Below, in pieces: positions 12,058-63,460 of a DNA stretch of 64,000 nt (positions within the stretch are counted from its first letter, which is position 1; each line of letters starts with the position of its first letter). The stretch is from contig CAZRHR010000001.1 of assembly GCA_964599915.1 (NCBI GenBank), positions 12,019-76,018 of the forward strand, written 5' to 3'. The stretch comes from an uncultured Candidatus Competibacteraceae bacterium (lineage in GTDB: Bacteria > Bacteroidota > Bacteroidia > CAIKAF01). Made by a program: the position numbers and the translations under genes. The notes beneath the pieces were generated by a model. It had not been told where the DNA came from, did not search any database, and saw only the letters and a program-made list of their open reading frames with translations.

Positions 12058-13396
12058 TCACACCTGTCCAAAATAATTTTTTTTGACATGAAATTGTTGT
12101 CCCTAAGTTAGGGGTGCAAAAAACAAAATATGTCCCACTCAAATGTATCACTTTTATCGCAAGTTTGTGCGCTGATAGACCGGAATGGATTTCAAAAGCT
12201 GGTTCACGAGCATCAATCTGACAAGCATTCCAAGGGGTTAGATACATGGACACATTTGATGTCTATGATTTTCTTACAACTCTCCAACGTTACCTCTTTG
12301 CGAGATATCAGCAATGGTCTTCGGAGTTCTACTGGCAATTTAAACCACCTAGGGATCCAAAGAGCGCCTTGTAAATCGGCCTTAAGCTACCAGAATCAGC
12401 ACCGTGATTACCGGGTTTTTGAGACGATGTACTACCAGATTTTAGAACGGCTTGGCGGGAGTTTTTCCCAACAAAGGCTGTATGCCAAAAGATTGAAACG
12501 TAAAATCTTTCTTGTGGATGCTACCGTCATTCCCTTTCTCTTGCGTTATTCGACTGGGCTAAGTTCCGAACCACCAAAGGCGCCTTTAAGTTTCATGCAG
12601 TGCTGGATTACGACAATGGTCTGCCCAACTATTGCTATCTCTCAGAGGGAAAGATGTCGGATATCACAGCGGCCAAAAAACGCATGTCTTTTCCCGCAGG
12701 CTCCGTTGTGGTGGCCGATCGGGGTTACATGAATTTTGAATGGTTGAAGCATTTGGACAGCAGCGGGTCAAATTCGTCGTTCGCATCAAATGCAATGTGA
12801 AAATCTAGGTGGAAACCAGCTATGAAACTAACGCCAAGTATCCGCACATCCTATCGGACCAAGACATAAGACTGGTGGGCATTACAGGATTAAAAGACTA
12901 TCCCAAAACACTACGCTTGGTTCGGGTGTATGATGAGCAAAGCGACCAATACCTGATATTAGCCACCAACGAAATGTCTTGGACAGCAGACGCCATTTCA
13001 CAATTATATAAGGCTAGATGGGCCATTGAAAGCTTTTTTAAGCACTTAAAGCAGCTTTTCCGTGTCAAAACATTTGTAGGAACCTCGGCTAACGCAGTAC
13101 GCATACAAATGTGGTGTGCCATGATCGCCATGCTCCTTATCAGTTATTTGAAAAACAAGGCAAAGTACCCCTGGCATCTATCCAATTTGGTTTGCTTTAT
13201 ACGTATCAATTTATTTGCAAAAATAGACTTGTGGTTTTGGCTTAATACCCCATTTTACAAGCCTCAAAAAATCATTCGACCGCCCACTTTATTTTGATGC
13301 AGGGGGATTGGTTTTGCAAAATGGGTTTTTTATGGCCGTAAACACCTAACAATCAAATGACATTTTGGGCGATGAAAAACGTTTTGGACAGCTGTG
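12058..13396 (+). mobile_element. IS4/IS5-superfamily insertion sequence (~1.34 kb) with imperfect terminal inverted repeats CACACCTGTCCAAAAT ... TTTTGGACAGCTGTG
   Basis: The left end at 12058-12073 and the right end at 13382-13396 are inverted repeats of each other. The interior encodes a DDE transposase. The same ends recur around the second copy at 32277..32926. Confidence 0.75.
12130..13297 (+). pseudogene. IS4-family DDE transposase split across three reading frames (two frameshifts)
   Basis: Pieces 12130..12732, 12600..12800 and 12809..13297 lie in frames 1, 0 and 2. They carry VVVADRGY (DDE Asp region) and YKARWAIESFFKHLKQ (the conserved E), so the reading frame is not continuous. Confidence 0.7.
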
Positions 13397-13529
13397 ATGA
13401 AAAATACAGCCGCATGACCCAAAAAAGCAAATAAAAACAGCTAAGTTGCTTATAGTCAATTGTGGTATTTTATGGCGACGACGTCGCGCACAAAACAGGA
13501 AAATTGCTAAGAACCTTAAAAAAACGAAT

Positions 13530-16950: not shown

Positions 16951-16989
16951 AAGTCTAAGATTTCTTTAATCAGAAATTCAGCTTCAGAC

Positions 16990-17395
16990 ACTGTTTCACC
17001 ATTATATTAGGCTATATGGGCTATTGAAAGCTTTTTTAAACACTTAAAGCAGTTTTTCCGTGTCAAAACATGTGTGGGAATCATGGCTAATTCAGTACGC
17101 ATAAAAATGTGGTGTGCCATGATTTCCATGCTCCTTATCAGTTATTAAAAAAAACAAGGCAAAGCACCCCTGGCATGTATTTAATTTGGTTTGTTTTATA
17201 CGCATCAATTTATTTGCAAAAATTGACTTGTGGTTTGGGCTTAATGCTCCATTTTACAGGCCTCAAAAAATCATTCGACCGCCCACTTTATTTTGATGCA
17301 GAGGGGTTGGTTTTGCAAGATGGGTTATTACAGCTGTAAACGCCTAACAATCAAATGCTATTTTGCGCGATGAAAAACGTTTTGAACAGCCGTGT
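16990..17395 (+). repeat. Solo 3' fragment (~400 bp) of the IS4-like element, with no left end
   Basis: Aligns base-for-base, about 90% identity, with 13005..13396 of copy 1. This includes the transposase C-terminal coding remnant and the right inverted repeat. Confidence 0.7.
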
Positions 17396-17475
17396 TGCAA
17401 AATAGAATTTCTTGAGCGTAAACGCTAAAAATCAGATGCTATTTTTGGAGTTGAAAAACGTTTTTGACAGGTTTT
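17336..17475 (+). repeat. Tandem duplication of the ~60-bp IS right terminus
   Basis: GTAAACGCCTAACAATCAAATGCTATTTTGCGCGATGAAAAACGTTTTGAACAGCCGTG recurs 22 bp later as CGTAAACGCTAAAAATCAGATGCTATTTTTGGAGTTGAAAAACGTTTTTGACAGG. Confidence 0.6.
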
Positions 17476-19493: not shown

Positions 19494-20158
19494 ACCCGTT
19501 GTGCGGTTTAAATATCATAATAAAAGAAAAAAGTTGTCCATATTACTGAAAATCAGTGTTTTGATGTAGGATATCAAGCTTACACAAGAATGCACAAGCT
19601 AAAAATAAATTACAACAAATTTTGCAAAGATGACAAGCACGTTCCGCCAGCCAAATCATATCATGCAGCGCATAAGGTTTACTATTATGGGTTTAAATTG
19701 CAACTCATGGGTAGTAAGCAAAGTATTCCTATTACCGCAGGTATGACTGCGGCTAACGTTCATGATGTCAAATATCTTGGCATGATTGATTTTGATGAAC
19801 AAATGTATAACTGTGAGTTAGTTGGAAATAAGGGGTATTTATCATTGGGATATCAAACATCCTTATTTAATCAGGCTAAAATAAAACTCGTCACACACCT
19901 CCGTAGTAATATGAAAACCGTTATGTCATCTTGGAATGAAAAATATTGCTACACAAGAAAACGTATTGAGACTCTATTTTCTCAGCTAGATGATCAGATG
20001 ATGAACAATCGTAATTATGCGAAATCACTCGATGGATTATTTTCACGAATCATTTATATACTCTCATTGGTGGCTGTTCTACAATGGATTAATTATAGCA
20101 ATGGAAAACCCATAAACCATATTAAGCATGCACTCGCATTTTAAACCGCACAACGGAT
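19494..20158 (+). mobile_element. IS982-family-like element, internally deleted (~665 bp), bounded by 19-bp terminal inverted repeats
   Basis: ACCCGTTGTGCGGTTTAAA at 19494-19512 and TTTAAACCGCACAACGGAT at 20140-20158 are inverted repeats (17 of 19 matching). The element sits exactly between the stop of 20162..21127 and the start of 18629..19492. Confidence 0.7.
19590..20144 (+). pseudogene. N-terminally truncated IS982-family DDE transposase (184 aa, lacks the first Asp region)
   Basis: VGNKGY (the GDKGY-like second Asp) and RKRIETLFSQL (the conserved Glu) are present. The N-terminal HTH and first catalytic Asp region are missing. Confidence 0.6.
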
Positions 20159-20161
20159 TTG

Positions 20162-21127
20162 TCATACTGTTGAAAGTTGGATTAAATAAATAGGTCTTTT
20201 TTTAACCCCTTCAAATGTTTTACCCACATATAATCCAACTACTCCCAACATTACTAATAGTAGACCTGAGAAGAACCATATAGAAATAACTAAACTTGTG
20301 TAGCCTTGCACAGTTACCTCCCCGACAAAATACCTAATTAAAAAAACCAACCCCATTACAAATGCTAAAAGCGATACAATAATACCAAATTTTATCATTA
20401 GCCTTATGGGTTTATCTGAATAAGCCAAAATAATGTCTAAAGCTAAATTAAGTAAACGCTTAAAATTATATGATGACTTACCCTCTGATCTTTTTGCATG
20501 CTCTATTGGAATGGCCGTTTGATTAAAGCCTACCCATTTGACCATTGTTGGAAAATATCGTATTGATTCACGCATCAAAGTCAAAGATTGTATAACCTTT
20601 CGGCTATATATTCCAAAGTTTGCAACACTTTCATCCATCTTGTAACCAGTTAAATAACCTAACATCCTATAGAACATTTTTGAGAAAAATCTTTTAAAAA
20701 AGGCATCTTGTCTCTCAATTCTCTGGGCTAAAACAACGTCATAACCCTCATAAGTTTTTTGGTAAAGTTTGTAAATTTCCTCAGGTTGATCTTGTAAGTC
20801 ACAGTCCATAACCACAACCCAGTCTCCCTTTGCATGATCTAGTCCACACGCTATGGCGTAATGTTGCCCAAAATTTCTACTCAACTTAAAACCTTTAACA
20901 CGAGGATTTTTCTTTGCTATATCTTCAATTGCTTCCCATGAGTTATCAGGACCACAATCTTCAACCAAGATAATTTCGTAGTTTAAAGTAATCTTTGAAA
21001 TTGAATGGTCTATTCTTCTAATTAATTCGGGTATAATTTTTTCAGCTCTATAAACAGGGCTCACGATAGAAATATGAGGCTTAAAAGATTTTGAAATCAT
21101 AATTTTACATTTTTGAAGTGGACACAT
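20162..21127 (-). CDS. Polyprenyl-phosphate glycosyltransferase, GT2 (GtrB/ArnC-like), with two C-terminal TM helices
   Basis: ISIVSPVYRAEK...LVEDCGPDNS...RNFGQHYAIACGL...VVMDCDLQDQPEE...GKSSYNFKRLLNLALDIILAYSDKPIRL matches the GtrB/ArnC family closely, followed by a two-helix membrane anchor. Confidence 0.85.
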   Translation of the reverse strand: MCPLQKCKIMISKSFKPHISIVSPVYRAEKIIPELIRRIDHSISKITLNYEIILVEDCGPDNSWEAIEDIAKKNPRVKGFKLSRNFGQHYAIACGLDHAKGDWVVVMDCDLQDQPEEIYKLYQKTYEGYDVVLAQRIERQDAFFKRFFSKMFYRMLGYLTGYKMDESVANFGIYSRKVIQSLTLMRESIRYFPTMVKWVGFNQTAIPIEHAKRSEGKSSYNFKRLLNLALDIILAYSDKPIRLMIKFGIIVSLLAFVMGLVFLIRYFVGEVTVQGYTSLVISIWFFSGLLLVMLGVVGLYVGKTFEGVKKRPIYLIQLSTV

Positions 21128-21423: not shown

Positions 21424-22536
21424 TCATCTTAGATTTATCTTCTCACCTAATTGATGAACATTTACCAAAACATTAGTATTTACTAGATATTCCTTTTCAT
21501 TGCCATTTATCATCCCCTCTGAAACTAATTTAAAGATTGGGGGATTCGCCGTTTCACAAAATAAGGCATCGTAGTCTATGCTGACGGCATGGGCTAATTT
21601 CCAAAATGGAAATGTATATTCTGCGCGCGCATAGGCTTCATTAATAAGTTCTATAACCCTTGCTCCAGTGGGACAAAACATAAGGTTTGATAAACCTGCC
21701 CCATGCAGGGAAATAAACCGCTCCGCTTGGCTCATCATGGCAATCTGTTCCCATACGCTCATGTTTTCAAAAAATATCGCTTCAAACCCTTCTTTTTGAA
21801 GAAACGGCAAAATTTCTTCTTCGTTTTCCACACAACGCACACCTCGCTTCTTACGCGATAAGTACACATGACGTGGAAATAGGGTTTCAGGATTTATTCT
21901 TTTCCAAGCTTCTTGTCGTAGCCGATCAGCCGTTTTCTTAATCAAGGGTGGATAAAAAGAAGCCGTCCAAGGCCTGAGCTCGGGCATATAGAGTTTGTGA
22001 GCGAATACATGTGCTCCCTCCGGAATGAAGCGCGGTGTAAAAGAAAAAGCTTCCAAGGTATCCCATACATAGGGAATGTTTTTCCAGCCCTCAGGTACCA
22101 ATAACACCGCTTTCTTGAGCAAACCTGCCTCTTCGGCCATGATAAGCCGGGGCAAATAAGCATTTACCCAAAACGCATAATTAAACCATTTGGAATGGAT
22201 GACCACACAGGGATCCTCCACCCTCACGGAGGGCAGGCTATTTCCCCAGCGACAAACTGCATATTCCTCAATGGTTTGGCGCCAGAAAGGATAGTAAAAA
22301 GTGTTATCCTCCCTGCCCCGGAGATTAAATGCACAACCAGTAACTAACAGCCCGTTCCTCATCACCAACCCTGAGTGGCTCACAAAGGCATTCTTCAATT
22401 CGCGGATATGAGGTACGGGGGCACAATATTCAGCCCTACGCTCCATCAGGGACCTGTATTCCTTTGGGATTTCTTGTGGAACAGGGACCTTTATGTTCAG
22501 CCATTTCCTCATTTTTTCCTCATTTTTATCATCCAT
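21424..22536 (-). CDS. GT61/DUF563-family glycosyltransferase candidate
   Basis: C-terminal HGAGLSNLMFCPTGARVIELI resembles the conserved HGAGLTN block of DUF563/GT61 proteins. Confidence 0.5.
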   Translation of the reverse strand: MDDKNEEKMRKWLNIKVPVPQEIPKEYRSLMERRAEYCAPVPHIRELKNAFVSHSGLVMRNGLLVTGCAFNLRGREDNTFYYPFWRQTIEEYAVCRWGNSLPSVRVEDPCVVIHSKWFNYAFWVNAYLPRLIMAEEAGLLKKAVLLVPEGWKNIPYVWDTLEAFSFTPRFIPEGAHVFAHKLYMPELRPWTASFYPPLIKKTADRLRQEAWKRINPETLFPRHVYLSRKKRGVRCVENEEEILPFLQKEGFEAIFFENMSVWEQIAMMSQAERFISLHGAGLSNLMFCPTGARVIELINEAYARAEYTFPFWKLAHAVSIDYDALFCETANPPIFKLVSEGMINGNEKEYLVNTNVLVNVHQLGEKINLR

Positions 22537-23450
22537 CTGATGATATCCCCAAAAATGGGTATCGAATACAATAACATCACTGCCAGCGGCTTATTGGTAC
22601 GGCCGTTGTAGCTTGGGGGACACAACAGGAAAGAGCGCAGGCCCTGACTCCAAACCTCACTGCTTTTTTTTTCCCTGAATGCTTTTATGGCTATATGATA
22701 CCTACACATGCTGCGCAGCCTGTTCTTTTCCTTTCGGGGCAGTTTAGCCTTCAATTCGGGACGGGCAAAAATCTTCTTTAAATTAGTCAATTCCCGGCCC
22801 CATTTGTCAGATGCTCCATGCGTAAAACTATCCGGCGCAGCCACATACACCGTGGTGCGCGCTTTGAGCTGATAAACAGGCACACCCGCAGCTACCATAC
22901 GAAGAGAAGTATCCATATCCTCGCAGATGGTTACTGCGGGGTCAAATAAATGTTGGCGCATAACATTCTTGTGCACAGCCCAACGTTGAGGATTTACGGT
23001 GTAACGCAGAAAATAGGAATAGGAGTCAGTGCTTTCCAAATCTGGGCAATGCCGTTCTGTTCGAACGCCGGATGCCGATTCATCCCAAGCATTGGTGAAA
23101 AAGAAGGCCTCGGGTTCTCCTTGAGACGTAATCAAATCATGCAACTGTTGCAAATGTTCGGGCAGGTGATAATCGTCGCTGTCCAAAAAGCAGATGTATT
23201 TTCCCGAAGACAACTTTATACCGCGGTTTCGGGAAACACAACGTTCCTGATTCGTATCATTTTTCAGGTAACGAATACGGGTGTCCTGTTGTGCAAAAGA
23301 GTACACGAGTTCCGCGGTTTGGTCCACAGAGGCGTCATCTACGATAATCAATTCCCAAGAGGTAAAGGTTTGAGCCAATACGCTTTCCAGCGCCTTTGCC
23401 AGGTGATGAGCCCGGTTATAGCTGGGAATGATGAGGGAGAAATAGGGCAT
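22509..23450 (-). CDS. GT2 glycosyltransferase
   Basis: YFSLIIPSYNRAHHLAKALESVLAQTFTSWELIIVDDASVDQT and CFLDSDDYHLPEH motifs. Confidence 0.85.
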   Translation of the reverse strand: MPYFSLIIPSYNRAHHLAKALESVLAQTFTSWELIIVDDASVDQTAELVYSFAQQDTRIRYLKNDTNQERCVSRNRGIKLSSGKYICFLDSDDYHLPEHLQQLHDLITSQGEPEAFFFTNAWDESASGVRTERHCPDLESTDSYSYFLRYTVNPQRWAVHKNVMRQHLFDPAVTICEDMDTSLRMVAAGVPVYQLKARTTVYVAAPDSFTHGASDKWGRELTNLKKIFARPELKAKLPRKEKNRLRSMCRYHIAIKAFREKKSSEVWSQGLRSFLLCPPSYNGRTNKPLAVMLLYSIPIFGDIIRWMIKMRKK

Positions 23451-23670
23451 GGCTTGTTTGGCCGTTCGGTTGTTGCTATTTTATGGTAATTAGGCAATGG
23501 GGCATCAGCCAGAAAGCAAGAGTGAAAGTTTTGATTATTACGTTGCAGCTACTCTTTGGTCTGATAGTAATCGGACGTGCGTTGCATGCTCTGCGGGACT
23601 CCAGTTGCTATATTTGAATGTTTTTATGTTCAGTGAGGCTTTTAGGTTCTTTTTTCGATAAACTCCCATT

Positions 23671-23697
23671 GACAAGCTCAGGGTATCAGAGGGTGAA
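23671..23697. repeat. Direct repeat copy A (GACAAGCTCAGGGTATCAGAGGGTGAA) flanking the AbiE-like cassette
   Basis: Matches 24640..24667 (GACAAGCTCAGGGTAACACAGGGCGTG) at about 22 of 27 positions. Confidence 0.55.
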
Positions 23698-23701
23698 TGT
23701 T

Positions 23702-24327
23702 TTAGGTTGTTTGTCCACCAAGAAAGTGACCTATTTCTGACTTGATTTTTTCTTTGCAGTCATCCCAATTACATGGCAACAACATTTTCGGTTGTGTCTC
23801 TTTATCAGCATCTTCAAAACAGGTAAGGCTTTTTAGGACCATAAAAATAGATCCACTATGATACTTTTTTTTGTAAAAATCAAACATTTCTGAAAGTGAG
23901 TAGATGGAAAGAAGGAAGTATAGATCAATAAAGTCCTTTTTGAACCTCTTCCTGCAATGGCATTCAACTTCATTGCCGCAATATCTTTGGTGGAAGCCAT
24001 ACGAATTCCATCTACCGTACTTGCTTTTTCCAGGATGGGATAGGAATAATTTACAAAATCTACTTTTATATTGTTAATACTAGTGATTAGAATTTTTGAG
24101 GATTTTTTGATCGTAAGCAGTTCTCCTACAGTTGATAACAGATTTAAAATTTCATCCATTTCAAGCCGGGACTCACCAAATAAATCAATATCTACAGAAT
24201 TCCTATGCCCTATTTGAAGAGCTAATGAAGTACCTCCAACAAGATCAAAATCGTTTAAGGCGCTTATTTTCATTAAGCTATTTAAGAGTTCCAGAAGTTC
24301 CTCGCTGACGGTTTGCTTGTGTAACAT
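23702..24327 (-). pseudogene. AbiEii/AbiGii-type nucleotidyltransferase toxin (DUF1814) disrupted by a -1/+1 frameshift in an A5 run
   Basis: N-terminal LVGGTSLALQIGHRNSVDIDLF is the AbiEii GGxxLxL...DxD nucleotidyltransferase motif. Shifting frame at CAAAAAGG (~23916-23922) joins it to ...GRGSKKDFIDLYFLLS..., the family's conserved KDFxDLYFL block. That continues into the 23702..23887 ORF. Confidence 0.6.
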
Positions 24328-24587
24328 CTGAATTCTGATTGATCCATATTAAAAAAGAAGGCCAAAAAAGAGAGCGTTGTTTTTTCAAGATTCCGAATGT
24401 TGAGCACCGATTTTTTTACCTCATCCGCTCCGTAAAATGTGAGCAAATTTCTCCAGTCAGATAACTGCCCGAATTCAACCACCTTGTATATTAGCTGATC
24501 CTTATTTTTTTGCAGGTCAAATATTTCCACATCCATATCCCAAAATAAATAGGGCGAAAATTGATTGATAGGTACTTTGCTTTTCAT
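24282..24587 (-). CDS. Small ORF (101 aa) immediately upstream of and overlapping the AbiEii-like gene; possible cognate antitoxin partner
   Basis: Its position and 46-bp overlap with the toxin gene resemble a bicistronic TA arrangement. No recognisable HTH motif, so the function is unassigned. Confidence 0.3.
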   Translation of the reverse strand: MKSKVPINQFSPYLFWDMDVEIFDLQKNKDQLIYKVVEFGQLSDWRNLLTFYGADEVKKSVLNIRNLEKTTLSFLAFFFNMDQSEFRCYTSKPSARNFWNS

Positions 24588-24639
24588 CTTATTAAAGTTA
24601 GGGGATATTATTTTACAGCGTTCGTTGTTCTTCCCTTCG

Positions 24640-24667
24640 ACAAGCTCAGGGTAACACAGGGCGTGTG
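24640..24667. repeat. Direct repeat copy B flanking the AbiE-like cassette
   Basis: See 23671..23697. Confidence 0.55.
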
Positions 24668-24789
24668 TTACTTGTTCCTTGTTGCTCGCTCTTGGTTCTT
24701 CCCCGATATATTAGGGTCTTAGTTTTCTCTGCATTAGTTGTCATCCTCACGCTAATTCTTGGTCTGGACAGGACTGAAATGTCTTGTCT

Positions 24790-25110
24790 TTTGGTTCTCC
24801 TTGAGCCTTGATCAAATCATGCAGCTATTGGAAATGTTCGGACAGGTGGTAATCGTCGCTGTCCAAAGAGCAGATGTTTTTTCCTTTTGCGGCTTCTATG
24901 CCGCAGTTACGGGTGATGCAGCGTTCAGTGTTTGCTTCATTATGAAGCACGACTTTATTGGGTAGCAAATGCTGAAGGGCTATTTCATAGGAAGGGTCTG
25001 TGGAGATATCATCTACCGCGATGGTTTCAAAATCGGTGAACGTCTAGTCCATAAACGAATCCCAAGCTCGGGTCAAATACTTTTCACGGTTAAAAGCCGG
25101 CATAATTAAA
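24790..25110 (-). pseudogene. 5' fragment (~110 codons) of a GT2 gene paralogous to 22509..23450, with an in-frame stop
   Basis: Minus-strand translation gives IMPAFNREKYLTRAWDSFMD*TFTDFETIAVDDISTDPS...CSLDSDDYHLSEHFQ*LHDLIKAQGEP. A ~100-bp stretch is about 90% identical at the DNA level to 23110..23230. Confidence 0.6.
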
Positions 25111-26146
25111 GTAAAACAGGGTGTTTCTGGCATGAATTTTTATAGCGTATCAATTCATTTACCTTCTGACCATAGCGATGGCGTTCCTTCAAAAAATAAT
25201 TCAGGTTGATTTTAATCCGTCTCCTCTCTTGCCTTTTATTTGCGACAGCCCCGTTGAATGGAAGTTTAATGGCATAAATCAGCGTGTAAATAAGCTCCTT
25301 GAGCCAAAAAAACCTTACCGGACCAGTAATATAGCCCTTTGCCACCCTCAAATAAATTCCCCCTAACGGACCATTGGCTTGCATACCTTCCAGTAACCGT
25401 TGACGATATTCTTCGGTGAGTCTTTCGGCTGGCACATGATGATAAAATTTTAATTCTTCGGCATACCACACTTCGTATCCCAAAAATCGTAATGCCCAGC
25501 AAAGCTCACTGTCTTCACCGCCTGTGGCTAATGATTTTCCGGTTCGCGAAGCAAGAAGAAATTCAAATCCGTTTTCTTTTGCCTTTTGATAGCCTTTCAT
25601 CCGCACCCACATACCCGCACCATAGACCACATTGCGGGTGGGTCTAACTTCGCCGGTTTTAGGAGCCTGCGGTGCACAGGCATAATAATAGGCATATTCC
25701 GAAAACCAATCCGGGATGGGAATTGTGCTTACGGCGATTCCCTGTCCGCCCAAAATTCCGATTTGCGGGTTTTGTTCCATCAATGCATATCCAACATCCA
25801 AATAGTCGGAAAAAAACGAGTTATCGTCGTCGCAGGTAATCACATAGTCGTACGCCGCATGAGCAAATCCATTTTCTTGGGCGTTAAGTTTACCCGGTTT
25901 GGATTCTTCCAAAATGAGCAACGGAAAAGGATTGCCGAGTATGTTCCATTTTTCGCGTGTAAATTCGGCCGTACCATCCGTAGAGGCATTATCTACCAGA
26001 ATCAGCTCCACTCCGGGGATTTGGTTCGTTTTTAATTGGGATAAAGCCTCCAGCGTGGCCGGCAGTTTTTCCTTGCCGTTATAGGTAGAAATTAATATGG
26101 ATATGCCTTGTTTCATTAAACTCAAAATCCATGTTTCAGTTTCCAC
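25106..26146 (-). CDS. GT2 glycosyltransferase
   Basis: ISILISTYNGKEKLPATLEALSQ...ELILVDNASTDGT and CDDDN motifs. Confidence 0.85.
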   Translation of the reverse strand: METETWILSLMKQGISILISTYNGKEKLPATLEALSQLKTNQIPGVELILVDNASTDGTAEFTREKWNILGNPFPLLILEESKPGKLNAQENGFAHAAYDYVITCDDDNSFFSDYLDVGYALMEQNPQIGILGGQGIAVSTIPIPDWFSEYAYYYACAPQAPKTGEVRPTRNVVYGAGMWVRMKGYQKAKENGFEFLLASRTGKSLATGGEDSELCWALRFLGYEVWYAEELKFYHHVPAERLTEEYRQRLLEGMQANGPLGGIYLRVAKGYITGPVRFFWLKELIYTLIYAIKLPFNGAVANKRQERRRIKINLNYFLKERHRYGQKVNELIRYKNSCQKHPVLL

Positions 26147-32258: not shown

Positions 32259-32276
32259 TGATATATGATTTTAATT

Positions 32277-32926
32277 CACAATTGTCCAAAATGTTATTAA
32301 TCGCCCAAAATGTCATTTGATTGTTAGGCGTTTACGGCGGTAAAAAACCATTTTGCAATACCAATCCCCTGCATCAAAATAAAGTGGACGGTCGAATAAT
32401 GTTTTCAGGTTTGAAAAATGGGGTATTAAGCCAAAACCACAAGTCTATTATTGCAAATAAACTGATGTGTATAAAGCAAACCAAATTGTATAGATGCCAA
32501 GGGCACATTGCCTTGTTTTTCAAATAACTGGTAAGGAGCACGGCTATCATGGCACACCACATTTGTTTGCATACTGTGTTAGCCGAGGTTACCACAAACA
32601 TTTTGACACGGAAAAGCTGCTTTAAGTGCATAAAGAAGCTTTCAAAAGTCCATCTGGCCTTATTTAATTGTGAAATGGTGTTTGCTGTCCAAGACATTTC
32701 ATTGGTGGCTAAAATGAGATATTGGTCGCTTTGTTCATCACACACCCGAATCAAGCGCAGTATTTGGGGATAGTCTTTTAATCTTGTATTGCCCACCAGT
32801 CTTATGTCTTGGTCCGATAAGATGTGCGGATGCTTGGCGTTAGTTTCATAGCTGGTTTCCAACTAGATCTTCGATGTCCCTATTTTTATGACAAAAAAAT
32901 TATTTTGGACAGGTGTGATTAAAAAC
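32277..32926 (-). mobile_element. Second, internally deleted (~650 bp) copy of the IS4-like element retaining both terminal inverted repeats
   Basis: Ends are CACAATTGTCCAAAAT (32277-32292) and ATTTTGGACAGGTGTG (32911-32926). Relative to copy 1, roughly 12106..12795 is deleted. The remaining sequence is about 85-90% identical. Confidence 0.7.
32374..32862 (-). pseudogene. C-terminal 162-codon transposase fragment of IS copy 2
   Basis: METSYETNAKHPHILSDQDIRLVGNTRLKDYPQILRLIRVCDEQSDQYLILATNEMSWTANTISQLNKARWTFESFF... is about 85% identical to 12809..13297. Confidence 0.7.
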
Positions 32927-37869: not shown

Positions 37870-39111
37870 TCACTCACGGCTATAGTTAAAATCAACTTGG
37901 GGTATTATATAACCACTTCGTTTCCCGTAATAAAAATCCATAAATGATTCATCACATAATTCAAAGTTAAGTATATCCTTTAAATATCCTAAAAGCTCAG
38001 TTGATTCCAAATGAAAGTTTAGTTGGACAGCATAAATTCCTGAATTCAATGTTCCGCCGGGTAATAAAAAAGTACAATTAATTCTACCTGGCGCTTCTGT
38101 GATCATTGGGGACGGGTTCTCAAAAATAACCTCCTCATTATTCCCTCTAACAATAAGATTTATATAAAAACCATTTAAAATAGAGTGCTCGAATTCAACA
38201 TTAAATCTTATTGCGTCTGAAGGATTTAACTGGTTGCCATCACTGGAAATGTGCACCCGATGCACCCATAAGCCTTCGCTTAGACGCCCTTCATCTCCCA
38301 AGATAACATTGATTTTTCTTGGTTCAGTGTCATCCATGTAAGCACGGATTGCACGGCTTGTTTCATCAATAGTTTTGATATTGCCATTTTTTAAAAACAT
38401 TACAGAACTGCATAGCGCTTTAATACTCAGTAAATTGTGACTAACAAAAAGCACCGTTCGACCCTCTGATGCACTTACATCCTTCATCTTTCCCAAACAC
38501 ATCTTCTGAAACTCACCATCCCCAACAGCCAATACCTCATCCACAATCAAAATCTCACTTTCCAAATGGGCCGCTACCGCAAAAGCCAATCGCACATACA
38601 TGCCGCTGCTATAGCGCTTTACCGGCGTGTCAATGTAGCGTTCCACTCCGGCAAAGTCTATGATTTCATCCAGCTTTCTGGTGATCTCATGTTTGCGCAT
38701 CCCCAAAATGGCACCATTTAAATAAATATTTTCCTTTCCGGTAAGCTCCGGGTGAAATCCTGTACCGACTTCAAGCAGGGAAGCGATGCGACCCTTTACT
38801 TTGATGTTTCCGGTCGTAGGGGCCGTTACCTTGGAGAGTATTTTTAATAAAGTGCTTTTCCCTGCGCCATTGCGCCCAATAATACCCAAAACTTCACCTT
38901 GTTCCACATCGAAACTTACATCTTGCAACGCCCAAACATAATCGGAAACTCCTTTTTGGGTGCGGTCATTTGTTTCACCAATTTTTTGAAATGGATCTTC
39001 TTTTCCCCTCATGGTATGCCACCACCGAAGGACATCGTCACGTAAGGTGCCGCTGCCAACGGTGCCAAGTCGGTATTGTTTAGAAATATTTTGGGCTTGG
39101 AGGATTTTCAT
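37870..39111 (-). CDS. wzt: Polysaccharide ABC exporter ATP-binding protein (Wzt/TagH-like) with a ~160-aa C-terminal extension domain
   Basis: Walker A GIIGRNGAGKSTLLKIL, signature YSSGMYVRLAFAVA, Walker B ILIVDEVLAVGD. The extra C-terminal domain is the Wzt-type substrate-recognition region. Confidence 0.9.
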   Translation of the reverse strand: MKILQAQNISKQYRLGTVGSGTLRDDVLRWWHTMRGKEDPFQKIGETNDRTQKGVSDYVWALQDVSFDVEQGEVLGIIGRNGAGKSTLLKILSKVTAPTTGNIKVKGRIASLLEVGTGFHPELTGKENIYLNGAILGMRKHEITRKLDEIIDFAGVERYIDTPVKRYSSGMYVRLAFAVAAHLESEILIVDEVLAVGDGEFQKMCLGKMKDVSASEGRTVLFVSHNLLSIKALCSSVMFLKNGNIKTIDETSRAIRAYMDDTEPRKINVILGDEGRLSEGLWVHRVHISSDGNQLNPSDAIRFNVEFEHSILNGFYINLIVRGNNEEVIFENPSPMITEAPGRINCTFLLPGGTLNSGIYAVQLNFHLESTELLGYLKDILNFELCDESFMDFYYGKRSGYIIPQVDFNYSRE

Positions 39112-61084: not shown

Positions 61085-63460
61085 GTGCGTTCGCTTGTTA
61101 CCTTCTTCTTCTTGATGCTCAGCTTTCCCATCCTTTTTTCCCAAGGCATTATACGTGGAAAAATTGTAGATGAAAACACCAATGAACCTGTACCCGGTGC
61201 TACTGTTTTGGTGGAAGGCAGCAGTAATGGAGGAGCTGCAAACCTAGATGGCCTTTTTGAAATTCAAAATGTCGCCAATGGTTTCCAAAACCTACGGGTG
61301 AGCGCGGTGGGTTTTGAAACCCGGATTATCAGAGATATTCAGGTAAACAACCAAACCCCAGCCAACATCACCATTGCCCTTTTGCCCTTGGTGAACCAAC
61401 TTGAAGGCATTGATGTTCGGCCTTCCCCATTCAACCGGACGGATGACACCCCACTTTCTCTGCGAACCATTGGTATTGCCGAAATTGAAAGAAATCCCGG
61501 TGGAAACCGCGATATTTCTAATGTATTGCGTTCTTTCCCTGGCGTAGGCTCTACACCCGCTTTTCGCAACGACATCATCATCCGTGGAGGCGCACCGAAT
61601 GAAAACCGGTTTTTCTTGGATGGTGTAGAAGTGCCTGTGATCAATCACTTTCAAACGCAAGGGGCATCTGGAGGACCTGTTGGGATCATCAATGTAAACC
61701 TGATTCGGGAAGTAGATTTTATTTCCGGTGCTTTTCCCGCCAATCGCGGAAACACCATGAGCTCAGTGTTGGAGTTTAAGCAGGTCGAGGGCAACAAGGA
61801 CCGTTGGCAATTTAGAGGAACGGTGGGAAGTTCAGACGCGGGTTTTAAGGCAGATGGCCCCATTGGGAAAAAGTCTACCCTGATAGCTTCCGTACGCGCT
61901 TCATATCTTCAATTCCTCTTCGCCGCGCTTAAATTGCCGTTTTTACCCACCTATTATGATGCACAATTCAAGTATGCTTTCCGTCCGGACGACAAAAGCG
62001 AGCTTATCATCCTTGGTTTAGGAGCCATTGATTTGTTTTCCTTGAATACCAAAGCAAACGAAACAGAAGAACAACGTTATCAATTGGGTGTGCTTCCGGT
62101 GAATCAACAATGGAATTATACCATTGGAGCAACTTACCGACGCTTTACCAAAGGTGGAACCCACTTATGGGTGCTTTCCAGAAATATGCTCAACAATGAG
62201 GCCGTGAAGTATGCCAATAACATAGAAACGCCCCAAAACCTTATCTTGGATTTCCGCTCTCAAGAAGCCGAAAACCGGTTTCGTTATGAATTTTCTACCC
62301 AACGCAAAAAATGGCGGATTTCTGGTGGGGTCAATGCCGAGTATGCACGCTTTACCAACCGAACCTTCAACCGTGTGAATACCCTTGCCGGTATCGACAC
62401 CATCGACTTCAATAACCAGTTAAATTTGTTTATCGGAGGGTATTTCGGACAAATCAGTCGGAAATTTTTCAAGGATAAATTGTCCTTAAGCGCCGGTTTT
62501 CGTTTGGACCATAACAGCTACAACGCTAGCATGGCCAACCCGTTCAACCAGTTTTCACCGAGGTTTTCTGCCTCTTGGAATTTTCACAAAAACTTTTTCC
62601 TGAATGGTTCTATCGGTCGCTATTACCAGCGTCCAGCCTATACCCTCATGGGATTTTCAGACCCTGCCGGCAATTATGTGAATCAACAACGTTTAACCTA
62701 CATTCGTTCCGACCATTATACCGCCGGCTTAGAATGGGCACCAGGGCCCAACACTCGATTTACCGTAGAAGGTTTTTGGAAACAATACGCCAATTATCCT
62801 TTTTCCCTTCGTGATTCTGTAAGTTTAGCCAACTTGGGGGCTGATTTCGGCGTAGTAGGAAATGTGGAAGCCACCAGTGCAGTAGGAGGAAGGGCACGAG
62901 GTATTGAATTTCTGGCCCAACAAAAATTGTTTAAAGGATTTTATGGTATTCTGGCCTACACGTTTGTGCGAAGTGAATTTCAAAATTTACAAGGAACCTA
63001 CATTCCTTCTGCATGGGATAGCCGCCACATCATCACCCTAACGACGGGTTATAAAATCGGTCGCAACTGGGAAATTGGGGCACGTTGGCGTTTTGTGGAT
63101 GGTTTACCTTTTACGCCCTATGACACCCTCACCAGCACCATTAAAGAGGTATGGGACATTACCCAACAAGGAGTGAACGACGCATCGGCAACCAACACGC
63201 AAAGAATTTCAGCTTTTCACCAGTTGGATTTACGTGTGGATAAAGTTTGGTACTTTAAAAAGTGGTCTTTCAACCTTTATCTGGACATTCAGAATGTCTA
63301 TGGGTTCAAGTCGGAAGGACGGCCTTTCCTTACGGTGGAAACGGACGAAAATGGACAACCTGTGACAAATCCAGCCGATCCAGACCGTTATGTTCCTAGG
63401 TTCATCAGGAATACAGCAGGAACCACCTTACCCACCATTGGGATTATTGTGGATTTCTAA
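61085..63460 (+). CDS. TonB-dependent outer-membrane receptor with an N-terminal carboxypeptidase-regulatory-like domain
   Basis: Signal peptide, then GIIRGKIVDENTNEPVPGATVLVEG (CarbopepD_reg), a plug region, and a long beta-barrel ending in the aromatic ...IGIIVDF. Confidence 0.85.
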   Translation: MRSLVTFFFLMLSFPILFSQGIIRGKIVDENTNEPVPGATVLVEGSSNGGAANLDGLFEIQNVANGFQNLRVSAVGFETRIIRDIQVNNQTPANITIALLPLVNQLEGIDVRPSPFNRTDDTPLSLRTIGIAEIERNPGGNRDISNVLRSFPGVGSTPAFRNDIIIRGGAPNENRFFLDGVEVPVINHFQTQGASGGPVGIINVNLIREVDFISGAFPANRGNTMSSVLEFKQVEGNKDRWQFRGTVGSSDAGFKADGPIGKKSTLIASVRASYLQFLFAALKLPFLPTYYDAQFKYAFRPDDKSELIILGLGAIDLFSLNTKANETEEQRYQLGVLPVNQQWNYTIGATYRRFTKGGTHLWVLSRNMLNNEAVKYANNIETPQNLILDFRSQEAENRFRYEFSTQRKKWRISGGVNAEYARFTNRTFNRVNTLAGIDTIDFNNQLNLFIGGYFGQISRKFFKDKLSLSAGFRLDHNSYNASMANPFNQFSPRFSASWNFHKNFFLNGSIGRYYQRPAYTLMGFSDPAGNYVNQQRLTYIRSDHYTAGLEWAPGPNTRFTVEGFWKQYANYPFSLRDSVSLANLGADFGVVGNVEATSAVGGRARGIEFLAQQKLFKGFYGILAYTFVRSEFQNLQGTYIPSAWDSRHIITLTTGYKIGRNWEIGARWRFVDGLPFTPYDTLTSTIKEVWDITQQGVNDASATNTQRISAFHQLDLRVDKVWYFKKWSFNLYLDIQNVYGFKSEGRPFLTVETDENGQPVTNPADPDRYVPRFIRNTAGTTLPTIGIIVDF

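What the first reader, a model, noticed from the sequence alone, without database searches (positions are those of the whole stretch)
23671..24667. Frameshifted AbiEii-like nucleotidyltransferase toxin cassette flanked by ~27-bp direct repeats inside the glycan locus
Between two GT2 genes lies a ~1-kb insert bounded by GACAAGCTCAGGGTA(T/A)CA(G/C)AGGG. It encodes a DUF1814/AbiEii-type nucleotidyltransferase with the GGTSLALQ...DIDLF motifs and a small overlapping upstream ORF with no recognisable fold. The toxin frame breaks in an A5 run. A one-base shift there restores the family's KDFIDLYFL block, so the gene is either recently inactivated, phase-variable, or mis-sequenced. A toxin-antitoxin or abortive-infection module sitting in a surface-glycan locus is notable. 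The 101-aa partner does not resemble the canonical AbiEi wHTH antitoxin and may be a new partner type.
Basis: partly seen in the sequence, partly recalled or inferred. Interest (0 to 1): 0.5.

Follow-up and report, generated by a model that had tools for sequence, protein, structure and literature searches.

The report
Decayed toxin-antitoxin pair in glycan locus
A widespread two-gene module (a small DUF6922 protein plus a MenT/AbiEii-type nucleotidyltransferase, probably a toxin-antitoxin pair) sits at a recombination scar in a sugar-coat gene cluster; its enzyme gene is broken by a real one-base deletion, and its flanking "repeats" are copies of a short motif common across bacteria.

Summary
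The sequence features are real, and all lie on the minus strand. A 101-aa ORF (24587→24282) overlaps by 46 nt an AbiEii/DUF1814 nucleotidyltransferase gene (24327→23702). That gene is broken in an A5 run at 23937-23941. Adding one A gives a 208-aa protein that passes PF08843. A related strain, 98% identical over this stretch, carries A6 and an intact gene.

The partner is not a new fold family in name: it is Pfam DUF6922, uncharacterised, with no paper found. It is the obligate partner of this NTase clade. It lies upstream in 75 of 75 metagenomic loci, and the overlap is exactly 46 nt and dual-coding in 72. In phage-like contigs and one plasmid it is fused to a HigA-like HTH. This supports an antitoxin role, closest in logic to MenA1-MenT1.

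The "direct repeats" share the core CCCTGAGCTTGTCGAAGGG, which occurs across many bacterial phyla (at least 120 loci, about 4 expected). They are not cassette-specific ends.

Related loci without the cassette, plus a truncated GT2 pseudogene, show that the cassette sits at a recombination junction of a mosaic glycan locus rich in IS fragments.

Verdict: an ordinary, recently inactivated copy of a little-studied TA-like family. Interest is modest.

The parts
24282..24587 (-). Intact gene for a 101-aa DUF6922 protein, the putative antitoxin or regulator of the downstream NTase
23702..24327 (-). Pseudogene of an AbiEii/MenT-type (DUF1814) nucleotidyltransferase. As it stands it encodes 134 native residues plus a 30-residue out-of-frame tail (ORF 24327->23833). 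The remaining 74 codons lie in another frame and end at TAA 23704-23702.
   Evidence: More than 7893 homologues were found, and the listed best hits are mostly 202-206 aa. The allele in L004 is intact.
23937..23941 (-). Frameshift site: an A5 run (T5 on the + strand) in the Ser-Lys-Lys codons, between NTase motif III (KLNAIAGR) and motif IV (KDFIDL). The intact allele has A6.
   Evidence: See and the alignment with L004. The same A5 is present in two Logan assemblies from different runs.
24282..24327 (-). 46-nt overlap of the two genes. The NTase ATG lies inside the invariant Phe-Arg-Cys codons of DUF6922. Both frames are under constraint.
   Evidence: The overlap is exactly 46 nt in 72 of 75 metagenomic loci. 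Information content is 1.11 bits per position against 0.77-0.80 in the flanks, and the third-position minima are lost.
24632..24682 (.). Upstream repeat copy. On the coding strand the core is the canonical CCCTGAGCTTGTCGAAGGGA (24651->24632), preceded by an 8-bp hairpin, GTAACACA-CGCCC-TGTGTTAC.
23664..23714. Downstream repeat copy with a degenerate core, CCCTGAGCTTGTCAATGGGA (23683->23664). It overlaps the NTase stop codon.
24790..25133 (-). Truncated GT2 pseudogene. The ATG at 25133-25131 is kept. Two CAG->TAG stops lie at 25046-25044 and 24827-24825. Homology ends after about codon 115.
   Evidence: It matches PF00535 with E = 9e-22. It is 57% identical to the GT2 that directly follows the orthologous GT in cassette-free loci. 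It is colinear with L141 at 78.6% DNA identity as far as 24832. The sequence was read directly.
24793..24884 (.). A 92-nt stretch at the 3' end of the GT2 pseudogene that is 89% identical to 23113-23204 inside the intact GT2. It marks a partial duplication or recombination.
22509..23450 (-). Intact 313-aa GT2 downstream of the cassette. It is a divergent allele, only 66-71% identical in DNA to the GT2 of the cassette-free loci.
25106..26146 (-). 346-aa GT2 upstream of the cassette, belonging to the left block, which is 78-90% identical to the cassette-free loci

Best explanation
The region holds one copy of a conserved bicistronic module. An upstream 101-aa DUF6922 protein is coupled, through a 46-nt dual-coding overlap, to a roughly 205-aa minimal nucleotidyltransferase of the DUF1814 (AbiEii/MenT/JHP933) family.

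Most likely function (inferred): the pair is a toxin-antitoxin module. By analogy with the MenT toxins, the NTase would add nucleotides to tRNA 3' ends and block translation. DUF6922 would bind and neutralise it. This could happen by blocking the active site, or by inducing autophosphorylation of the Thr/Ser in the GGTS motif, as MenA1 does with MenT1.

State of this copy (shown): the NTase gene is dead. A one-base deletion (A6 to A5) between motif III and motif IV removes motif IV and the C-terminal helical domain. The DUF6922 gene is intact.

Locus history (shown for the layout, inferred for the event): the low-GC cassette lies at a recombination junction of a mosaic, IS-littered polysaccharide locus. 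The ancestral GT2 was truncated there, and a divergent GT2-GT61 block follows.

Flanking repeats (shown for distribution, inferred for meaning): the two repeats are copies of a short motif found across many bacterial phyla. They are not target-site duplications or attachment sites specific to this module.
For: Identity of the genes:
- PF08843 scores 52.9 bits against a cut-off of 22.5, and PF21956 gives E = 2.3e-16.
- PADLOC AbiEii models hit the NTase; nothing in PADLOC hits the partner.
- The AF2 model of homologue P0003 (pLDDT 94.6) matches JHP933 best (4o8s/4ok0, E = 4e-8, TM 0.61-0.64), then MenT1 (8an4/8an5) and MenT4 (6y56).

Obligate pairing:
- A DUF6922 ORF lies upstream in 75 of 75 metagenomic loci with enough upstream DNA, and the overlap is exactly 46 nt in 72.
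- The same arrangement appears in nearly all the other loci fetched; in L005 no upstream gene was called.
- The overlap is dual-coding.

Antitoxin-like behaviour of DUF6922:
- HigA-like HTH_3-DUF6922 fusions precede distant NTase relatives in 5 IMG/VR contigs and on Microscilla plasmid pSD15.
- A stand-alone copy on a Hymenobacter plasmid lies beside Fic/VbhA and traN.
- The literature shows that DUF1814 toxins pair with unrelated antitoxins, including the 68-aa MenA1, which has no DNA-binding domain (PMC10435456). It also describes antitoxin-induced autophosphorylation (PMC11375011).

Real inactivation:
- L004 has A6 and an intact frame at 98% identity.
- A5 is identical in assemblies from two separate runs.
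- The window copy has Cys at the nearly invariant Tyr170 downstream of the break.
- A substitution of a conserved toxin-specific residue, D211A, abolishes MenT3 toxicity (PMC7450476).

Junction:
- In L141-L144 the orthologous GT is followed directly by a 313-aa GT2 and then GT61, with no cassette.
- The left block is colinear with L141 as far as 24832, and the right block is only 66-71% identical.
- The GT2 pseudogene is documented.
- Cassette GC is 35%, against 41% for the window and 42-49% for the flanks.
- IS fragments are present in the locus.

Repeats:
- It is absent from all other module loci and from the cassette-free loci.
Against: - No experiment shows toxicity or neutralisation for any DUF6922-NTase pair, and no paper mentions DUF6922.
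- Not all DUF1814 proteins are toxic. MenT2 showed no detectable effect (PMC10435456).
- Many copies sit stably among housekeeping genes, between Tex and TatA or beside PdxJ. The NTase is unusually conserved for a toxin, at about 60% identity across the listed best hits. Both points could indicate a non-toxic cellular role.
- The only two copies of the motif in 64 kb bracket the low-GC cassette exactly. A pure 'generic repeat' reading leaves this unexplained.
- The two Logan runs may come from the same study as the window's assembly, so they may not be fully independent.
Confidence: 0.62

Rival explanations
1. One reading: the cassette is a discrete mobile insert, and the two direct repeats are its functional ends. 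They could be a target-site duplication, attachment sites, or hairpin ends used by a transposase or recombinase acting in trans.
For: - The motif occurs only twice in the window, and the two copies bracket the low-GC cassette exactly.
- Cassette-free orthologous loci carry neither the motif nor the cassette.
- Both copies are kept in the related strain L004.
Against: - The core is a motif shared across many phyla, often found in tandem arrays or inverted pairs unrelated to any cassette.
- No other DUF6922-NTase locus examined carries it: the 17 loci checked by pattern, and none of the loci held.
- The two copies are only 75% identical over 51 nt.
- No significant structure was predicted around the repeats (z = -1.8 to +0.7).
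- The junction is not a clean insertion. The GT2 is truncated, there is a partial duplication, and the right-hand block is divergent.
- A metagenome scan for the downstream repeat plus its flank found nothing.
Confidence: 0.12
2. The module is not a toxin-antitoxin pair. It is a two-subunit cellular enzyme, an NTase with a DUF6922 specificity or regulatory subunit that modifies RNA or a small molecule. Its loss here is neutral decay.
For: - Some lineages keep a stable chromosomal position between housekeeping genes.
- The NTase is highly conserved, and the coupling is strict and dual-coding.
- Some DUF1814 proteins are not toxic (PMC10435456).
- ANT(2'')-type and CCA-adding enzymes appear among the weaker fold matches.
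Against: - The HigA-type HTH fusions of DUF6922 have the classic antitoxin architecture.
- Copies occur beside other TA genes and conjugation genes on a plasmid, and in phage-like contigs.
- Several loci carry multiple copies.
- The distribution is patchy, the GC differs from the flanks, and pseudogenes occur.
Confidence: 0.2
3. The frame break is not a true loss of function. It is a sequencing error, a phase-variable switch, or is bypassed by programmed frameshifting or transcriptional slippage.
For: - The break lies in a homopolymer.
- A6 and A5 alleles both exist in closely related strains.
Against: - A5 is identical in the window and in assemblies of two different runs.
- A tract of 5-6 A is short for slippage-based switching.
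- The run is not conserved among homologues, ranging from 2 to 7 with several codon choices.
- A further substitution lies at a nearly invariant Tyr downstream.
- No slippery heptamer is apparent at the site (my reading of the sequence).
Confidence: 0.06

Closest known systems
MenA1-MenT1 (Rv0078B-Rv0078A) of Mycobacterium tuberculosis
   Same: - Both have a short DUF1814-type NTase of about 190-205 aa, and MenT1 (8an4/8an5) is among the top fold matches.
- In both, a small upstream partner lacks a DNA-binding domain (PMC10435456).
- The gene order is partner first, then NTase.
- The GG[ST] motif carries a possible phosphoacceptor (PMC11375011; by inference here).
   Different: - DUF6922 (101 aa, helical) shows no detectable sequence or fold relation to any PDB chain.
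- The 46-nt dual-coding overlap is specific to this family.
- NTase sequence identity to MenT1 is only 14-17% in the structural alignment.
- The host is probably a member of Bacteroidota, not an actinobacterium.
- Nothing has been tested experimentally.
AbiE (AbiEi-AbiEii) type IV TA / abortive-infection system of Streptococcus agalactiae and Lactococcus
   Same: The NTase passes the Pfam AbiEii model and weaker PADLOC AbiEii models. It has motifs I-IV once the frame is corrected.
   Different: - There is no AbiEi (COG5340, wHTH plus C-terminal domain) partner.
- The NTase is about 90 residues shorter than typical AbiEii and covers only model positions 9-172 of 238.
- There is no evidence of phage defence.
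JHP933 of Helicobacter pylori (PDB 4o8s/4ok0)
   Same: It is the best structural match (E = 4e-8, TM 0.61-0.64). It is a compact DUF1814 NTase.
   Different: Sequence identity is 18-19%. No related partner gene is known to me for JHP933 (from memory, not checked here).
HigA/Xre-type HTH antitoxins
   Same: In phage-like contigs and on pSD15, the DUF6922 domain is fused to a HigA-like HTH_3 domain directly upstream of the NTase. This is the usual layout of a DNA-binding domain plus a toxin-binding domain.
   Different: The window's protein has no HTH. It is the stand-alone form.
REP/MITE-like short interspersed bacterial repeats
   Same: The repeat core is a short motif with many copies, found singly, in inverted pairs and in tandem arrays.
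   Different: Known REP families are specific to a species or genus (my general knowledge). This 19-20-mer is shared nearly unchanged across phyla. I could not match it to any Rfam family or to any paper by sequence.

Membership tests
DUF1814 / AbiEii nucleotidyltransferase (PF08843) | Score above Pfam's gathering threshold | tested here: met
   The corrected protein scores 52.9 bits and the ORF as it stands scores 37.1 bits, against a cut-off of 22.5.
DUF1814 / AbiEii nucleotidyltransferase (PF08843) | Pol-beta motifs I and II (hG[GS] ... DxD) | tested here: met
   The sequence reads LVGGTSLALQIGHRNSVDIDLF. G31, G32, D46 and D48 are invariant in 40 homologues.
DUF1814 / AbiEii nucleotidyltransferase (PF08843) | C-terminal motifs III and IV present in one reading frame | tested here: not met
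   Motif III (KLNAIAGR) is in frame. Motif IV (KDFIDL) is out of frame because of the A5 deletion at 23937-23941. Both are in one frame in the corrected sequence and in L004. The gene is therefore a member by descent but a pseudogene.
DUF1814 / AbiEii nucleotidyltransferase (PF08843) | DUF1814-type fold | tested here: met
   The model of homologue P0003 (65% identical, pLDDT 94.6) matches JHP933, MenT1 and MenT4 best.
DUF1814 / AbiEii nucleotidyltransferase (PF08843) | Nucleotidyl transfer to tRNA, and growth inhibition | not testable with these tools
   This needs expression and biochemistry.
AbiE type IV TA / Abi system | AbiEi (COG5340; wHTH plus C-terminal domain) antitoxin encoded upstream | tested here: not met
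   The partner hits only DUF6922 in Pfam at E <= 1 and nothing in PADLOC. Its model is all-helical with no winged-helix match.
AbiE type IV TA / Abi system | Abortive-infection phenotype against phage | not testable with these tools
   No assay was possible.
MenAT1-type system | Partner homologous to MenA1 | tested here: not met
   The DUF6922 profile and model gave no hit to any chain of 8an5. The resemblance is functional and architectural only.
Pfam DUF6922 (PF21956) | Score above the gathering threshold | tested here: met
   The score is 59.4 bits against 27, covering residues 10-60. A profile search found 2131 representative clusters.
Toxin-antitoxin module (generic) | Two adjacent co-oriented small genes that always occur together | tested here: met
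   The pair was found in 75 of 75 loci.
Toxin-antitoxin module (generic) | Toxin toxicity neutralised by the cognate partner | not testable with these tools
   This is inferred only from the family relationship and from the HTH-DUF6922 fusions.
Phase-variable (contingency) gene | Long, conserved simple-sequence tract whose length varies within a population | tested here: not met
   The tract is A5 or A6. Among homologues the run is 2-7 with varied codons. Two runs gave the same A5. Variation at the level of reads was not tested.
Mobile cassette with target-site duplication or attachment-site repeats | Repeats specific to the element, and an empty site carrying one copy | tested here: inconclusive
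   The core motif is spread across many phyla and absent from other module loci. The cassette-free loci L141-L147 carry no copy at all. They are only 78-83% related, and the right-hand block differs.

The most novel reading that the evidence does not exclude
DUF6922 is the neutralising domain of a large, unstudied toxin-antitoxin family built on minimal MenT-like NTases. The family is mostly in Bacteroidota, with HTH-fused versions in phage-like contigs and on a plasmid. Its invariant 46-nt dual-coding overlap would enforce translational coupling. In addition, the cross-phylum CCCTGAGCTTGTCGAAGGG motif copies that bracket this cassette would be functional recombination or mobilisation sites, rather than inert repeats, and would move such modules into variable glycan loci.
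Probability: 0.08. Interest if true: 0.6.

Novelty: new variant of a known kind. Interest (0 to 1): 0.33.

Why it matters
The window's copy is a dead gene and of little consequence in itself. It does point to a very large family whose partner protein has no described function, no solved structure and no literature that I could find. More than 7800 NTase homologues were scored, and the partner family has more than 2100 representative clusters.

MenT and AbiEii toxins are regulated by strikingly different antitoxins. A third, unrelated antitoxin type would be a cheap and direct test of how general the 'antitoxin-induced autophosphorylation' model is. This one has both a stand-alone form and an HTH-fused form, and a strictly conserved dual-coding overlap.

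The cassette's position at a recombination scar also illustrates how surface-glycan loci are rebuilt from blocks. Separately, the short motif shared across phyla deserves identification.

Tried and rejected
- Rfam on the region (E <= 10) and on the whole window (gathering threshold) found no family for the repeats or anything else.
- Folding the repeat regions as RNA on both strands gave no significant structure, z = -1.8 to +0.7. The promoter and terminator scan was at background level.
- I suspected the ubiquitous motif is the apex of hairpins with variable stems. Across 138 copies, flank pairing was barely above control (mean 1.7 against 1.4 pairs), so I dropped the idea.
- I tried to separate coding from intergenic motif copies by open-frame length. 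This is uninformative in high-GC genomes.
- One genome locus, L046, has two direct motif copies 1.5 kb apart. They enclose a YidD-like gene (my reading of the ORF) and an unannotated 241-aa gene, not a TA cassette.
- Literature searches for DUF6922 and for the motif or its translations returned nothing.
- A metagenome scan for the downstream repeat plus its flank, meant to find an empty or filled right-hand site, gave 0 hits.
- PDB sequence searches with the NTase and with both profiles gave nothing significant.
- NCBIfam gave no meaningful model for either protein.
- The afdb50 fold library was unavailable.
- A general link between the family and glycan loci is not supported: 2 of 34 loci of at least 5 kb had glycan-like neighbours in a crude BLAST test.
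- DUF6922-NTase fusion by frameshifting is not supported. Among the 150 best DUF6922 representatives, none is long enough to be a DUF6922-NTase fusion.
- I could not name the organism. It is probably in Bacteroidota, judging from a CarboxypepD_reg-TonB receptor and the names attached to homologues.
Full report
**1. What is in the sequence**

All relevant features lie on the minus strand. A 101-aa ORF runs 24587→24282. A 164-aa ORF runs 24327→23833 and carries GGTSLALQ…DIDLF. A 61-aa ORF (23887→23702) lies in another frame and holds the family's C-terminal part.

The break is an A5 run at 23937-23941, which reads as T5 on the + strand. Adding one A gives a continuous 208-aa protein with …AIAGRGSKKDFIDLYFL….

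The 15-mer GACAAGCTCAGGGTA occurs exactly twice in the window, at 23671 and 24639. Chance expectation is 0.05. The similarity extends to 51 nt at 75% identity. Both neighbouring genes are GT2. The observation therefore stands, with small corrections.

**2. The two genes**

The corrected NTase passes Pfam AbiEii/DUF1814 at 52.9 bits against a cut-off of 22.5. The correction lengthens the match from residues 20-99 to 21-144. PADLOC's AbiEii models also hit it, more weakly.

The listed best hits are nearly all 202-206 aa and about 60% identical. An AF2 model of the intact homologue P0003 (pLDDT 94.6) matches JHP933 of H. pylori best, then MenT1 and MenT4 of M. tuberculosis. All three are DUF1814 NTases.

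The small ORF is not unclassifiable. It matches Pfam DUF6922 with E = 2.3e-16. A profile search of 1.84 billion representatives found 2131 clusters at E ≤ 0.001, and the 150 listed are mostly about 95-106 aa.

**3. The pair is a strict unit**

- In loci fetched through individual homologues, a DUF6922 gene precedes the NTase wherever one was called (no upstream gene was called in L005), and it is 101 aa in most of them.
- In 80 metagenomic loci found with the NTase profile, all 75 with enough upstream DNA carry a DUF6922 ORF. In 72 of them the overlap is exactly 46 nt.
- The NTase start codon sits inside the invariant Phe-Arg-Cys codons of DUF6922.
- Per-position information content across 83 aligned loci is higher in the overlap (1.11 bits) than in either single-coding flank (0.77 and 0.80 bits). 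The third-codon-position minima disappear. Both frames are therefore constrained.

**4. What the partner probably does**

Distant NTase relatives (31-39% identity) occur in five IMG/VR contigs and on Microscilla plasmid pSD15. There they are preceded by proteins in which a HigA-like HTH_3 domain is fused to DUF6922.

On a Hymenobacter plasmid a stand-alone DUF6922 precedes the NTase. That pair lies next to a Fic/VbhA pair and traN.

A DNA-binding domain fused to a toxin-binding domain is the usual antitoxin layout, so DUF6922 is most simply the NTase-binding, neutralising domain. The literature shows that DUF1814 toxins are paired with unrelated antitoxins. These include the 68-aa MenA1, which has no DNA-binding domain and blocks two MenT1 protomers (PMC10435456). 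Both MenA1 and MenA3 induce toxin autophosphorylation on a Ser/Thr of the active-site loop (PMC11375011).

By analogy, the NTase here would extend tRNA 3' ends, and DUF6922 would inhibit it, with T33/S34 of GGTS as candidate phosphoacceptors. All of this is inference. Nothing has been tested for this family.

A non-toxic cellular role remains possible. Several lineages keep the pair between Tex and TatA, or beside PdxJ. In addition, not every DUF1814 protein is toxic (PMC10435456).

**5. The frameshift is real and recent**

Contig L004, from a different sequencing run, is 98% identical across the cassette. It carries A6 and an intact frame.

The A5 allele is identical in the window and in assemblies of two further runs.

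The break separates motif III from motif IV and removes the C-terminal helices. In MenT3, substitutions of single conserved residues in the pol-beta motif or of toxin-specific residues abolish toxicity (PMC7450476).

Downstream of the break, the window copy has Cys where a nearly invariant Tyr stands (SLTYF). L004 keeps the Tyr.

The A-run is not conserved among homologues, ranging from 2 to 7 with several codon choices. It is simply Lys-Lys codons in AT-rich DNA, not a phase-variation tract. DUF6922 is intact, which gives the common decay state of a dead toxin with a retained antitoxin.

**6. The repeats**

On the coding strand, the upstream copy contains CCCTGAGCTTGTCGAAGGGA. The downstream copy contains a degenerate version, …GTCAATGGGA.

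A scan of one genome per GTDB species for CCCTGAGCTTGTCRAWGGGA stopped at its 120-locus limit. Hits came from Actinomycetota, Chloroflexota, Acidobacteriota, Cyanobacteriota, Planctomycetota, Patescibacteria, Bacteroidota, Pseudomonadota, Spirochaetota and others. About 4 hits are expected by chance (my estimate).

The copies occur singly, as close inverted pairs, or in tandem arrays.

No other DUF6922-NTase locus checked carries the motif, and neither do the cassette-free loci. The repeats are therefore generic short repeats, not ends specific to this module.

One point remains unexplained. The only two copies in 64 kb bracket the low-GC cassette exactly. For that reason I keep the mobile-cassette model as a minor rival. 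I could not identify the motif with Rfam or in the literature.

**7. How the cassette got there**

In contigs L141-L144 the orthologue of the upstream GT (83% protein identity) is followed directly by an overlapping 313-aa GT2 and then a GT61, with no cassette.

The window is colinear with that arrangement at 78.6% DNA identity, but only as far as about 24832. That stretch ends in a GT2 pseudogene (25133→~24790). Its ATG is kept, it has two CAG→TAG stops, and it is truncated after about codon 115.

In order, the following come next on the coding strand:

- about 110 nt of repeat debris;
- the cassette;
- 214 nt of intergenic DNA;
- a complete GT2 that is only 66-71% identical to the L141 GT2.

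The last 92 nt of the pseudogene are 89% identical to the matching part of the intact GT2.

Cassette GC is 35%, against 41% for the window and 42-49% for the flanks.

The locus also carries a DDE transposase fragment (19590-20144) and three copies of a 400-600-nt IS remnant.

The cassette thus marks a recombination junction in a mosaic polysaccharide locus, not a clean insertion between two genes.

The closest relatives of the module also sit beside polysaccharide genes (L004, L132, L136 and the P0002 contig). A broad sample does not: 2 of 34 loci in a crude test.

**8. Comparison with known systems, and verdict**

The NTase is a member of DUF1814/AbiEii by descent, but a pseudogene. The system is not AbiE, because it has no AbiEi. 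It works most like MenA1-MenT1 without being homologous in the partner.

I rate it a new variant of a known kind: a known toxin family with a catalogued but uncharacterised partner family and an unusual conserved dual-coding overlap.

As a finding in this window it is ordinary, a recently decayed TA-like module at a recombination scar. Interest is modest at 0.33. The value lies in the family-level lead and in the unexplained cross-phylum motif.

Noticed in passing
It occurs singly, as close inverted pairs, or in tandem arrays. Related units such as GCYTGTCGAAGGGA also occur. It has no Rfam family and no literature hit by sequence. Its nature is unknown.
   Followed up: partly
The ATG is kept, two CAG->TAG nonsense codons lie at 25046-25044 and 24827-24825, and homology ends after about codon 115. 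It is the remnant of the GT2 that directly follows the upstream GT in cassette-free relatives.
   Followed up: yes
window 12799-13405, 16985-17404, 32268-32872: Three copies (82-90% identical) of a 400-600-nt repeat. From its sequence it appears to carry the C-terminal fragment of an IS4/IS5-type transposase (ORF 32374..32862 -). The copy at 32268-32872 is inverted relative to the other two, so inverted copies bracket the 15-kb block that contains the cassette. Logan contig L001 ends in these repeats.
   Followed up: partly
window 19590-20144 (+): A 184-aa DDE_Tnp_1 transposase fragment lies on the opposite strand inside the glycan operon, next to a low-GC (33%) GT2 gene at 20162-21127.
   Followed up: no
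window 24282-24327; 83 aligned loci: The 46-nt overlap between DUF6922 and the NTase is invariant in length in 72 of 75 loci. By my reading of the coordinates it is also kept in a 34%-identical plasmid copy whose annotated NTase start is later. It shows dual-frame constraint. This is unusually long and rigid for a TA-like operon.
   Followed up: yes
L228-L232 (IMG/VR contigs), L237 (Microscilla pSD15), L236 (Hymenobacter plasmid): HigA-like HTH_3-DUF6922 fusion proteins precede distant relatives of the NTase in phage-like contigs and on a plasmid. A stand-alone DUF6922-NTase pair on a Hymenobacter plasmid lies beside Fic/VbhA and traN.
   Followed up: yes
L004, L132, L133, L136-L140: Eight of the short-read contigs fetched for the closer relatives start about 210-290 nt upstream of the DUF6922 gene, in DNA that looks repeat-rich. 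This suggests that assemblies regularly break at repeats in front of this module.
   Followed up: no
window 24735-24750 (+): GTTGTCATCCTCACGC, between the GT2 pseudogene and the upstream repeat, looks like a degenerate copy of another very common short repeat, GTCATCCTGAGCG...GAAGGA. That repeat also appears next to the motif in many of the genome loci.
   Followed up: no
L156, L157, L176, L216: Some metagenomic loci carry two NTase paralogues of this family within a few kb, so the module can be multi-copy and clustered.
   Followed up: no
window 37870-39111 and about 400-40000 (-): The surrounding polysaccharide locus spans roughly 40 kb on one strand and includes an ABC-transporter ATPase. 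It looks like an ABC-transporter-dependent glycan pathway. A TonB receptor with a CarboxypepD_reg domain (61085-63460) suggests a host in Bacteroidota.
   Followed up: partly
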